A DNA stretch of 64,000 nucleotides from the human T2T-CHM13v2.0 reference genome, Homo sapiens. Below are positions 54,404 to 55,618 of the stretch, piece by piece; position 1 is the stretch's first letter; each line of letters begins with the position of its first letter. The stretch lies in the NCBI RefSeq assembly GCF_009914755.1, contig NC_060935.1. The stretch is one strand, 5' to 3'. The translations under genes and the position numbers were made by a program. The notes beneath the pieces are model-generated. The model did not search any database. It had not been told where the DNA came from and saw nothing but the letters and a program-made list of their open reading frames with translations.

Positions 54404-55243
54404 TCATTAAATTGGGTTCATTAAACTTACCTTAGGGACTGTGATAACTTTATGCTGTTAGCTCTATGCAAAAACAAGATATAACTTTACATTTTAAAAT
54501 CTGCTTGAAATTAGTTGTACTTAGTATTTACCTATTCTTTCCCTCCATATTCTTTCCCTCCACAGATAGGTCTGTTTCAGACTTGTCCTTCATATAATTC
54601 AACCCTGATTTTACTCCCACAATCTGCACAACCTTTGGATCTGTCTAGCCTTGAAATTCCAATTATTTCTAGTTTGGTCTATCCACTATCACCTGACTTC
54701 TGATTCTGATGTTACCCCCAATTCCTGTTTCAATATTACCAAACAATGAGAACAGAAATCAGCATAATTACACTTTCAGGTTTTAGTTGTTAAGATTACT
54801 CTGATGGAACAGCATGAGAAGCACTATCATAAATGCTTCAATACAGATAAAGCTATGGAGAAAATAAGAGCTGCTACTATTTTTTAATATTTGGTTACAT
54901 TATGTAATAACACCCTGGAAAAATAAGGGACGAGTTATGAGGTTTCATTGTTTTCAAAATATTCTCACTCCCCTATAACACACAATGTGTTTCTCAGATG
55001 TAAAATAGTTTTCAGAGTTATTCACAGTGCCGTATCAAAAAGCCTGAACAAAATTCTTATTCTCAGTTTTCTGGAAGCCTAAATGTTACCAACAGTTTTA
55101 GTTGGGATTTTCTTGAGATTTTAAAATAATCCACTAACACCTGAATATGTTAGAAAATTTAAAAATTAACTTGGCAATAAGGATTAGAATACATTTTAAA
55201 ATAGATGCTATAAATACTAATCTGAGAGAAAAAAAATACTCAC

Positions 55244-55613
55244 TGTATTAGTTAGCTTTCATACTGCTACAAAGAACTGCCCAAGACTGGGTAATTTATA
55301 AAGGAAAGAGGTTTAATTGACTCACAGTTCAGCATGTCTGCGGAGGCCTCAGGAAACTTACAATCATGATGGAAGGCGAAGGGGAAGCAAGGCACCTTCT
55401 TTACAAGGTGACAGAAAGGAGAAGTGCTGAGCGAAGAGGGAAGAGCCCCTTATAAAACCATTAGATCTCATGAGAACTATCAGGAGAACAGCATGGGGAA
55501 ACTGCCCAAATGATTCAATTACCTCCACCTTGTCTCTCCCTTGACACGTGGGGGTTACGGGGATTACAATTCAAGATGAGATTTGGCTGGGGACACAAAG
55601 CCTAATCATATTA
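55244..55613 (-). mobile_element. THE1D-type MaLR solo LTR, 370 bp, same orientation as the host gene
   Basis: Plus strand tgtattag...ggggacacaaagcctaatcatatta; 5-bp TSD ctcac at 55239-55243 and 55614-55618. Confidence 0.92.
55511..55521 (-). promoter_or_regulatory. DUX4-type motif TAATTGAATCA within THE1D
   Basis: Plus strand tgattcaatta matches TAAYYBAATCA, the known MaLR DUX4 site. Binding not shown. Confidence 0.55.
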
Positions 55614-55618
55614 CTCAC

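What the first reader, a model, noticed from the sequence alone, without database searches (positions are those of the whole stretch)
55239..55618. THE1D LTR inserted into a splice donor: its target-site duplication is the donor itself
Seen: the 5-bp TSD is ctcac, which is GTGAG on the gene strand and equals intron positions +1 to +5. The exon now reads AAG|GTGAG-TAATATG, so the +6 T of the working donor is the first base of the LTR. The LTR's terminal TG has mutated to TA, restoring GTGAGTA. The second TSD copy keeps the ancestral intron context and forms a spare donor, ACA|GTGAGTAtttt, 375 nt downstream. Known: MaLR integration makes 5-bp TSDs. Inferred: the gene tolerated an integration inside a 5' splice site because the TSD plus the LTR's T rebuilt the consensus.
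Basis: partly seen in the sequence, partly recalled or inferred. Interest (0 to 1): 0.8.

Follow-up and report, generated by a model that had tools for sequence, protein, structure and literature searches.

The report
Retroelement LTR inside a splice donor
An ancient retroelement LTR landed inside the splice-donor signal of a human CCDC73 exon, and the short duplication made on insertion rebuilt that signal, so this is a tidy but probably harmless curiosity.

Summary
A 370-bp THE1-type MaLR solo LTR lies at window 55244-55613, in the same orientation as CCDC73. It is flanked by a perfect 5-bp duplication, ctcac (GTGAG on the gene strand), at 55239-55243 and 55614-55618. The exon-side copy is intron +1..+5 of exon 55619-55690, and the LTR's first base is +6.

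The boundaries hold against 29 other genomic copies: 25 start TG, 24 end CA, and 15 have perfect 5-bp duplications at the same edges. The rebuilt donor AAG|GTGAGT pairs with U1 better than the other six annotated donors in the window.

The protein junction ...ELKWQK|ETLQNQK... is unbroken in 94 of 120 orthologue models, including lemurs, tarsier, marsupials and platypus. The exon end is therefore older than the simian-only THE1 family.

The A at LTR base 2 needs no selection: 2 of 29 relatives also carry A there.

The downstream "spare" donor is weaker, and using it would meet a stop after 15 codons.

New here: GTRAG abuts these LTR ends about 4 times more often than at an offset control, which suggests a target preference overlapping the donor core.

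Not tested: the empty site in outgroups, RNA-seq, and the subfamily label THE1D. This is an ordinary mechanism in an unusual place.

The parts
55619..55690 (-). CCDC73 coding exon, 72 nt, phase 0-0, encoding [24 protein letters not shown]
   Evidence: Hub annotation. Frame 0 is the only frame open across the 7 joined exons. The junction with the next exon is unbroken in 94 of 120 orthologue protein models.
55613..55621 (-). Working 5' splice site, 9-mer AAG|GTGAGT. Its last base (+6, window 55613) is the first base of the LTR.
   Evidence: In-register pairing to the U1 5' end over -3..+8 gives 8 Watson-Crick pairs plus 1 wobble out of 11, at -12.3 kcal/mol. This is the best of the 7 annotated donors in the window and of the 27 GT sites in 55230-55625.
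55614..55618 (-). Exon-side copy of the target-site duplication (GTGAG on the gene strand), which is intron +1..+5
55244..55613 (-). THE1-type MaLR solo LTR, 370 bp, in the same orientation as the gene, with termini TA...CA
   Evidence: 85-89% identity to the 39 other scored genomic copies. Termini aligned to 29 copies. Mean p-distance to 28 independent copies is 0.116.
55239..55243 (-). Intron-side copy of the target-site duplication (GTGAG), followed by the ancestral intron context TATTTTTTTT
55236..55246 (-). Spare donor-like site ACA|GTGAGTAT, 375 nt downstream of the working donor
   Evidence: The intron side pairs fully with U1 but exon-side -3..-1 are unpaired, giving -7.6 kcal/mol against -12.3 for the working donor.
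55571..55573 (-). First in-frame stop (TGA) if the exon were read through into the LTR, after 15 extra codons. There are 7 stops in the 375-nt extension.
55312..55317 (-). ATTAAA hexamer on the gene strand, LTR positions 297-302. It is the only AWTAAA inside the LTR on either strand.
   Evidence: L001 positions 1569-1574, minus strand; L001 position 1 = window 53744

Best explanation
A THE1-type MaLR retroelement integrated into the 5' splice site of a pre-existing CCDC73 coding exon. The integrase's 5-bp staggered cut spanned intron positions +1 to +5, and gap repair duplicated GTGAG. The exon-side copy is followed by the LTR's invariant terminal T. Together they re-formed the full 9-nt donor AAG|GTGAGT, so U1 recognition and the exon-exon junction stayed as before. 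The other copy, with the original intron behind it, was pushed downstream. That distance is now 375 nt, because the element is a solo LTR.

Because LTRs end TG...CA in inverted form, either orientation would have supplied T at +6. This register is therefore the position closest to the exon at which such an element can sit without changing the 9-mer.

Shown: the anatomy, the family edges, the duplication, the conserved protein junction and the U1 complementarity.

Inferred:
- the empty site read AAG|GTGAGTAT;
- the event happened in an early simian;
- a full-length element later collapsed to a solo LTR;
- the insertion was nearly neutral.

A likely contributing factor is that this family's target preference favours GT-initial pentamers, GTRAG included. 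A donor core is then a mildly favoured target rather than a random one.
For: Anatomy and duplication.

Family edges. 25 of 29 relatives start TG, 24 of 29 end CA, and 15 of 29 have a perfect 5-bp duplication at the same edges, with 6 more at one mismatch.

Literature on the duplication length. Levy et al. 2010 (PMC2836564, passages read) describe MaLR insertions as having a 5-bp duplication inside a W-N9-W motif. The site here, A-AG-[GTGAG]-TA-T, fits that motif.

Exon end older than the family. 94 of 120 orthologue protein models have ...WQK|ETLQ... unbroken. These include Microcebus, Lemur, Propithecus, Otolemur, Carlito, Tupaia, three marsupials and platypus. THE1 members are reported only in simians (PMC10735291, passages read).

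Donor quality. Working donor -12.3 kcal/mol, inferred empty site -12.6, spare site -7.6, and the other six annotated donors -5.7 to -8.5.

Target preference.
- GTRAG abuts the LTR 3' end (read as reverse complement) in 96 of 20418 cases.
- It abuts the 5' end in 75 of 16914 cases.
- At a 10-nt offset the count is 22 of 20418 (Fisher p = 3e-12).
- AGGTRAG is adjacent in 19 cases and at the offset in 3 (p = 9e-4).
Against: The orthologous empty site was not seen, and no non-human genome is held. The timing and the single-GTGAG ancestral state therefore rest on duplication logic.

The protein models are mostly automatic predictions that lean on homology, so the conserved junction is not fully independent evidence. 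26 of the 120 models did not show the junction: 25 lack one of the two exons and 1 (P0072) differs in the first three residues.

Use of the donor rests on the RefSeq annotation. No RNA data were examined.

NCBI's mask (55269-55609) does not reach either repeat.

A sense-oriented LTR a few bases from an exon is the class most depleted in human introns (PMC3088655, passages read). Near-neutrality is therefore an inference, not a measurement.

The target-preference counts use exact 14-mers and a single offset control, taken at one LTR end only.
Confidence: 0.85

Rival explanations
1. The G-to-A change at LTR base 2 (intron +7) was selected as a compensatory repair, restoring U1 pairing that the insertion had weakened.
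For: 27 of 29 relatives have G at that base and this copy has A. A at +7 matches the inferred ancestral +7 and would form a Watson-Crick pair with U1 rather than a wobble (register shown). The a priori chance of a private change at a named site is low: 14 of 337 positions carry one.
Against: Position +7 lies outside the 9-nt core, which was intact from the moment of insertion. The only energy difference I measured for a flanking position (+8) is 0.3 kcal/mol. 2 of 29 relatives that are not at this splice site also carry A there. G>A is the commonest private change in this copy, 4 of 14. The site was picked after the fact. The relatives were chosen for similarity to this copy, which biases the divergence estimates.
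Confidence: 0.1
2. The LTR has been put to use. Either the spare downstream donor or an internal LTR donor gives a regulated unproductive isoform, or the LTR acts as an alternative promoter or poly(A) site for CCDC73.
For: The spare site has full intron-side U1 pairing. Three other donor-like sites lie in the LTR, at 55522, 55361 and 55325. An intact ATTAAA lies on the gene strand. The extension to the spare donor is a multiple of 3 (375 nt).
Against: Read-through meets TGA after 15 codons, with 7 stops in all. The working donor is far stronger than any rival site. No transcript evidence was available. RefSeq lists no functional element here (hub note).
Confidence: 0.1
3. The donor is not ancestral. 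The insertion created or shifted the exon end, and the match between the duplication and the donor is secondary.
For: None from the calls. It is considered because the empty site was not seen.
Against: The same protein junction occurs in 94 of 120 orthologue models, including non-simian primates, marsupials and platypus. The second copy's own context, joined to the exon end, gives a canonical donor.
Confidence: 0.03
4. The two ctcac pentamers match by chance, and the LTR edges lie elsewhere.
For: NCBI's mask (55269-55609) is shorter than 55244-55613.
Against: Homology to 29 copies runs to both edges. 15 of 29 copies have perfect 5-bp repeats at exactly these edges. The chance of 5/5 at fixed edges is 1/1024.
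Confidence: 0.02

Closest known systems
Fixed intronic LTR elements inside the exon-proximal 'underrepresentation zone' (Zhang, Romanish and Mager 2011, PMC3088655; passages read)
   Same: It is a fixed LTR element in an intron very near an exon, on the donor side. That paper reports that insertions within 20 bp of an exon lie more often near donor sites than near acceptor sites.
   Different: Here the element starts at intron +6, is in sense orientation (the more depleted orientation), and its duplication is the donor core itself. In the passages I read, the paper gives zone sizes (2 kb for all human LTR elements) but no case of this kind.
MaLR integration motif with a 5-bp duplication (Levy, Schwartz and Ast 2010, PMC2836564; passages read)
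   Same: It has a 5-bp duplication, with W three bases outside it on each side. Here that is A-AG-[GTGAG]-TA-T.
   Different: In the passages I read, that paper describes only the flanking W-N9-W signal. The GT-initial pentamer preference seen here is an addition and has not been checked against their figures.
Weak palindromic target consensus of retroviral integrases with a 5-bp stagger, such as HIV-1 (recalled; only listings seen for PMC4176367 and bioRxiv 10.1101/2022.10.26.513837)
   Same: GTNAC pentamers are enriched next to these LTR ends: 247 of 20418, against about 75 expected from base composition (the expectation is my own arithmetic).
   Different: MaLRs are ancient non-autonomous elements. 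The resemblance to the HIV-1 motif is recalled, not tested.
Mutagenic ERV and IAP insertions near splice sites in mouse (summarised in PMC3088655; passages read)
   Same: It is an LTR element, mostly sense-oriented, close to an exon.
   Different: Those insertions disrupt splicing or polyadenylation. This one left the 9-nt donor unchanged and is fixed in a conserved gene.

Membership tests
ERVL-MaLR solo LTR, THE1 group | Homology to a high-copy dispersed LTR family | tested here: met
   10476 first-look candidates in the own genome. 40 were scored, the window's own copy among them, and the other 39 are 85-89% identical over nearly the full 370 bp.
ERVL-MaLR solo LTR, THE1 group | TG...CA termini | tested here: met
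   The ends are TA...CA. 25 of 29 relatives start TG and 24 of 29 end CA at the aligned edges. The A at base 2 is a single difference, shared by 2 of 29 relatives.
ERVL-MaLR solo LTR, THE1 group | 5-bp target-site duplication | tested here: met
   Perfect ctcac/ctcac. 15 of 29 relatives are perfect and 6 have one mismatch. A 5-bp duplication for MaLR is stated in PMC2836564 (passages read).
ERVL-MaLR solo LTR, THE1 group | Subfamily THE1D by diagnostic positions (Dfam/RepeatMasker) | not testable with these tools
   No repeat library is held. I note only that this copy and 24 of its 29 fetched relatives begin with a ...TTAGG variant. That variant is the minority among the first 100 listed matches of the 16914 exact 5' ends.
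ERVL-MaLR solo LTR, THE1 group | Absent from the orthologous site of non-simians | not testable with these tools
   No non-human genome is held. The simian-only distribution of the family comes from PMC10735291 (passages read).
Functional U2-type 5' splice site | GT at +1/+2 abutting an annotated exon, with complementarity to the U1 5' end | tested here: met
   The U1 11-mer used was recalled, not taken from a tool.
Functional U2-type 5' splice site | Observed use in transcripts | not tested
   Only the RefSeq model NM_001008391.4 (hub note) and the protein models bear on this. No RNA-seq was available.
Exonised LTR or cryptic donor (the spare GTGAG copy) | The extension keeps an open reading frame | tested here: not met
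   TGA after 15 codons, and 7 stops in the 375 nt.

The most novel reading that the evidence does not exclude
5' splice sites may be mild integration hotspots for MaLR-type elements, because the integrase favours GT-initial pentamers preceded by AG. Insertions whose 5-bp duplication is exactly +1..+5 would be splicing-neutral in either orientation, because every TG...CA LTR supplies T at +6. If so, the genome should hold a small class of LTRs that begin at intron +6, with none closer to the exon. CCDC73 would be its first described member.
Probability: 0.3. Interest if true: 0.5.

Novelty: new member of a known kind. Interest (0 to 1): 0.3.

Why it matters
It is a clean natural example of how close to an exon a retroelement can insert without harm. 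The duplication that integration makes, plus the invariant LTR terminal base, can regenerate a splice donor. It also gives a simple, testable prediction for genome-wide surveys: a sharp cutoff at intron +6 for LTR elements. And it hints that the family's target preference overlaps the donor core. It does not change what is known about splicing or about LTR integration.

Tried and rejected
- Earlier findings of this scan were not open, so none were used.
- Literature on this locus or this phenomenon:
  - 'CCDC73' + 'LTR' gave 1 paper, an unrelated hair-follicle proteome (listing only).
  - 'target site duplication' + 'splice donor' + 'MaLR' gave 5 papers (listings only).
  - 'target site duplication' / 'donor splice site' / 'solo LTR' gave 233 papers holding at least 2 of the terms, 12 of them listed (listings only).
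  - None described an LTR whose duplication is a donor. These three searches are a thin basis for saying it is not in print.
- The repeat finder on 55000-55900 with a 6-base seed did not list the 5-bp repeat, which is below its seed length. The repeat was read directly instead.
- I tried to see whether other AG|GTRAG|LTR sites sit at exons. Ten loci were fetched and their flanks are unrelated unique sequence. The length of the stop-free run before the site did not separate them from the real CCDC73 exon, so the question stays open.
- The exact sense-orientation pattern with the ...TTAGG variant found only this locus. This says little, because the pattern is narrow.
- I did not compute the U1 energy for the donor with G at +7.

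Full report
**What is there**

On the + strand the window reads ...aaaaaaatactcac|tgtattagttagc...cctaatcatatta|ctcac|cttttgcc.... The pentamer ctcac lies at 55239-55243 and again at 55614-55618, with 370 bases between them. On the gene (-) strand, exon 55619-55690 ends ...TGGCAAAAG. It is followed by GTGAG, then TAATATGATTAGG..., then ...CTAATACA, then GTGAG again, then TATTTTTTTT.

Joining the seven annotated exons leaves only frame 0 open. This exon is therefore phase 0-0, and its donor reads AAG|GTGAGTAATA.

**Are the LTR edges right?**

No repeat library is held, but the window's own genome can be searched. The 370 bases gave 10476 first-look candidates. Forty were scored, the window's own copy among them, and the other 39 are 85-89% identical over almost the full length. 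I fetched 29 other copies and lined up their ends with this one.

- 25 of 29 start TG. The others start AG (2), TA (1) and CA (1).
- 24 of 29 end CA.
- 15 of 29 have a perfect 5-bp flanking repeat at exactly the aligned edges.
- 6 more have one mismatch, and 8 have two to four mismatches.
- L003 and L004 are the X and Y copies of one event, so 28 copies are independent.

A second, more distant MaLR LTR in the window (27977-28369, + strand, 67% identical) also starts TGATATGG, ends CTAATACA and has a 5-bp repeat, GGTAC. Levy et al. 2010 (PMC2836564, passages read) state that MaLR insertions have a 5-bp duplication inside a W-N9-W motif. The site here, A-AG-[GTGAG]-TA-T, fits that motif.

The edges 55244 and 55613 and the duplication are therefore real. 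A 5/5 match at fixed edges has chance 1/1024. NCBI's soft mask (55269-55609, hub note) is simply shorter than the element.

**Orientation**

The only AWTAAA hexamer inside the LTR is ATTAAA, on the gene strand at 55317-55312. Together with the TGATATG...CTAATACA reading direction, which I recall as the family's standard orientation, this puts the LTR in sense to CCDC73.

**Was the donor there first?**

I could not fetch any non-human genome, so the empty site was not seen. As an indirect test I searched the protein database with the 45-residue exon 13430-13564, asking for longer proteins. This gave 141 hits, of which 120 were listed, nearly all named CCDC73 and labelled with their species. I then located this exon and the next exon in each protein.

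In 94 of 120 models the last residue of this exon is directly followed by the first residue of the next (...ELKWQK|ETLQNQK...). These 94 include:

- Microcebus, Lemur catta, Propithecus and Otolemur
- Carlito (tarsier)
- Tupaia
- rodents, carnivores and elephant
- three marsupials and platypus

Of the other 26 models, 25 lack one of the two exons (alignment score 44 or less). One (P0072) has both exons but differs in the first three residues of the next exon.

Zuo 2023 (PMC10735291, passages read) reports THE1A-D, MSTA and MSTB only in simian genomes. The exon end is therefore older than the family. One caution applies: most of these proteins are automatic models built partly by homology.

**Donor strength**

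I paired positions -3..+8 with the 11-base 5' end of U1. That motif was recalled from memory, with pseudouridines written as U.

| Site | In-register pairing | Duplex energy (kcal/mol) |
|---|---|---|
| Working donor | 8 Watson-Crick + 1 wobble of 11 | -12.3 |
| Inferred empty site (exon end + second copy's context) | differs from the working donor only at +8 | -12.6 |
| Spare site ACA\|GTGAGTAT | intron side fully paired, exon side unpaired | -7.6 |
| Other six annotated donors in the window | - | -5.7 to -8.5 |

The working donor is also the best of the 27 GT dinucleotides in 55230-55625. The 9-nt core AAG|GTGAGT is identical before and after insertion, because the LTR's first base is T. LTR ends are inverted (TG...CA), so an element in either orientation would have put T at +6.

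**The spare donor**

Using it would add 375 nt, a multiple of three. But the reading frame meets TGA (55573-55571) after 15 codons, and there are seven stops in all. Any such product would be unproductive. I have no transcript data.

**The TG-to-TA change**

Base 2 is A here and G in 27 of 29 relatives. Two relatives (L008, L012) also have A.

- Mean p-distance to 28 independent relatives is 0.116, and among those relatives it is 0.119. That gives roughly 0.056 for this copy's own branch.
- At 337 positions where at least 80% of relatives agree, this copy differs at 14. Four of those differences are G>A.
- The relatives were chosen for likeness to this copy, so these figures are biased low.

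The change affects +7 only. It is therefore compatible with neutral decay, and a compensatory reading is possible but not needed.

**A side result that bears on mechanism**

I looked for similar cases by counting exact LTR-end words in the genome.

| Pattern | Count |
|---|---|
| 3' end read as reverse complement (TGTATTAGTCYRTT) | 20418 |
| ...directly preceded by GTRAG | 96 |
| ...preceded by GTRAG at a 10-nt offset (control) | 22 |
| ...directly preceded by GTNAC | 247 |
| ...directly preceded by AGGTRAG | 19 |
| ...preceded by AGGTRAG at the offset (control) | 3 |
| 5' end (TGATATGGTTWGGC) | 16914 |
| ...directly preceded by GTRAG | 75 |

- GTRAG adjacent against offset has odds ratio 4.4, Fisher p = 3e-12.
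- AGGTRAG adjacent against offset has p = 9e-4.
- The 5'-end rate (0.44%) matches the 3'-end rate (0.47%).
- About 75 GTNAC cases would be expected from base composition, by my own arithmetic.

The ten fetched AGGTRAG loci have unrelated flanks, so they are not internal element junctions. Four of the ten show the same pentamer again after a solo LTR of 334-382 nt.

This looks like a target preference for GT-initial pentamers, and that preference overlaps the donor core. It makes an insertion into a donor a few-fold less improbable than random. I could not tell whether any of these other sites lies at an exon (one search was not discriminating).

**Context**

Zhang et al. 2011 (PMC3088655, passages read) report three relevant points:

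- human LTR elements are underrepresented within about 2 kb of exons;
- the antisense bias is strongest near exons;
- elements within 20 bp of an exon lie more often on the donor side.

A sense LTR starting at +6 is thus in the most depleted class. The donor-side position, however, fits the known pattern.

A rough estimate suggests that a handful to some tens of such cases could exist genome-wide if they are near-neutral. It uses recalled figures of about 7e5 LTR elements, 3.1e9 bases and about 2e5 donors. That is why I score this as a neat example rather than a surprise.

From recalled work on U1 'telescripting', a strong U1 site about 300 nt upstream may also help suppress the LTR's ATTAAA. 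This is inference only.

**Verdict**

The compensatory gloss on TG-to-TA is unnecessary, and the subfamily label is untested. The mechanism is ordinary LTR integration in an unusual register. The decisive outgroup alignment and RNA evidence remain to be done.

Noticed in passing
Own genome, THE1/MST-type LTR ends (loci L032-L041 as examples): GTRAG abuts the LTR terminus about 4 times more often than at a 10-nt offset: 96 against 22 of 20418. At the other LTR end the adjacent count is 75 of 16914. GTNAC is adjacent in 247 of 20418. AGGTRAG is adjacent in 19 cases and at the offset in 3. This suggests an integrase target preference that overlaps the 5' splice-site core.
   Followed up: partly
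L034, L038, L040, L041: These are solo LTRs of 334-382 nt, read on the strand that begins TGTATTAG. Each is flanked by AG|GTRAG and the same pentamer again. In L041 the far copy reads GTAAGTAT. Whether any sits at a real exon is unknown.
   Followed up: partly
window 27972-28374: A second MaLR LTR (27977-28369, + strand, antisense to CCDC73, 67% identical to the 55-kb copy, with extra segments). It has TG...CA ends and a perfect 5-bp duplication GGTAC.
   Followed up: yes
window 55619-55621 (last codon of the exon), orthologue proteins: In 16 of the 94 models with an unbroken junction the exon ends in N instead of K (bats, horse, rhinoceros, a mole, one pig model). In those lineages the exon's last base cannot be G, so the donor's -1 position differs.
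   Followed up: no
window 40413-40484 (next exon), orthologue proteins: At least 13 predicted isoforms from non-primate species contain this exon but lack the next one. This hints at skipping of that 72-nt exon, or at gaps in the models.
   Followed up: no
L003 (C23) and L004 (C24): These are X and Y copies of one THE1-type insertion, with the same duplication TCACC and the same flanks.
   Followed up: no
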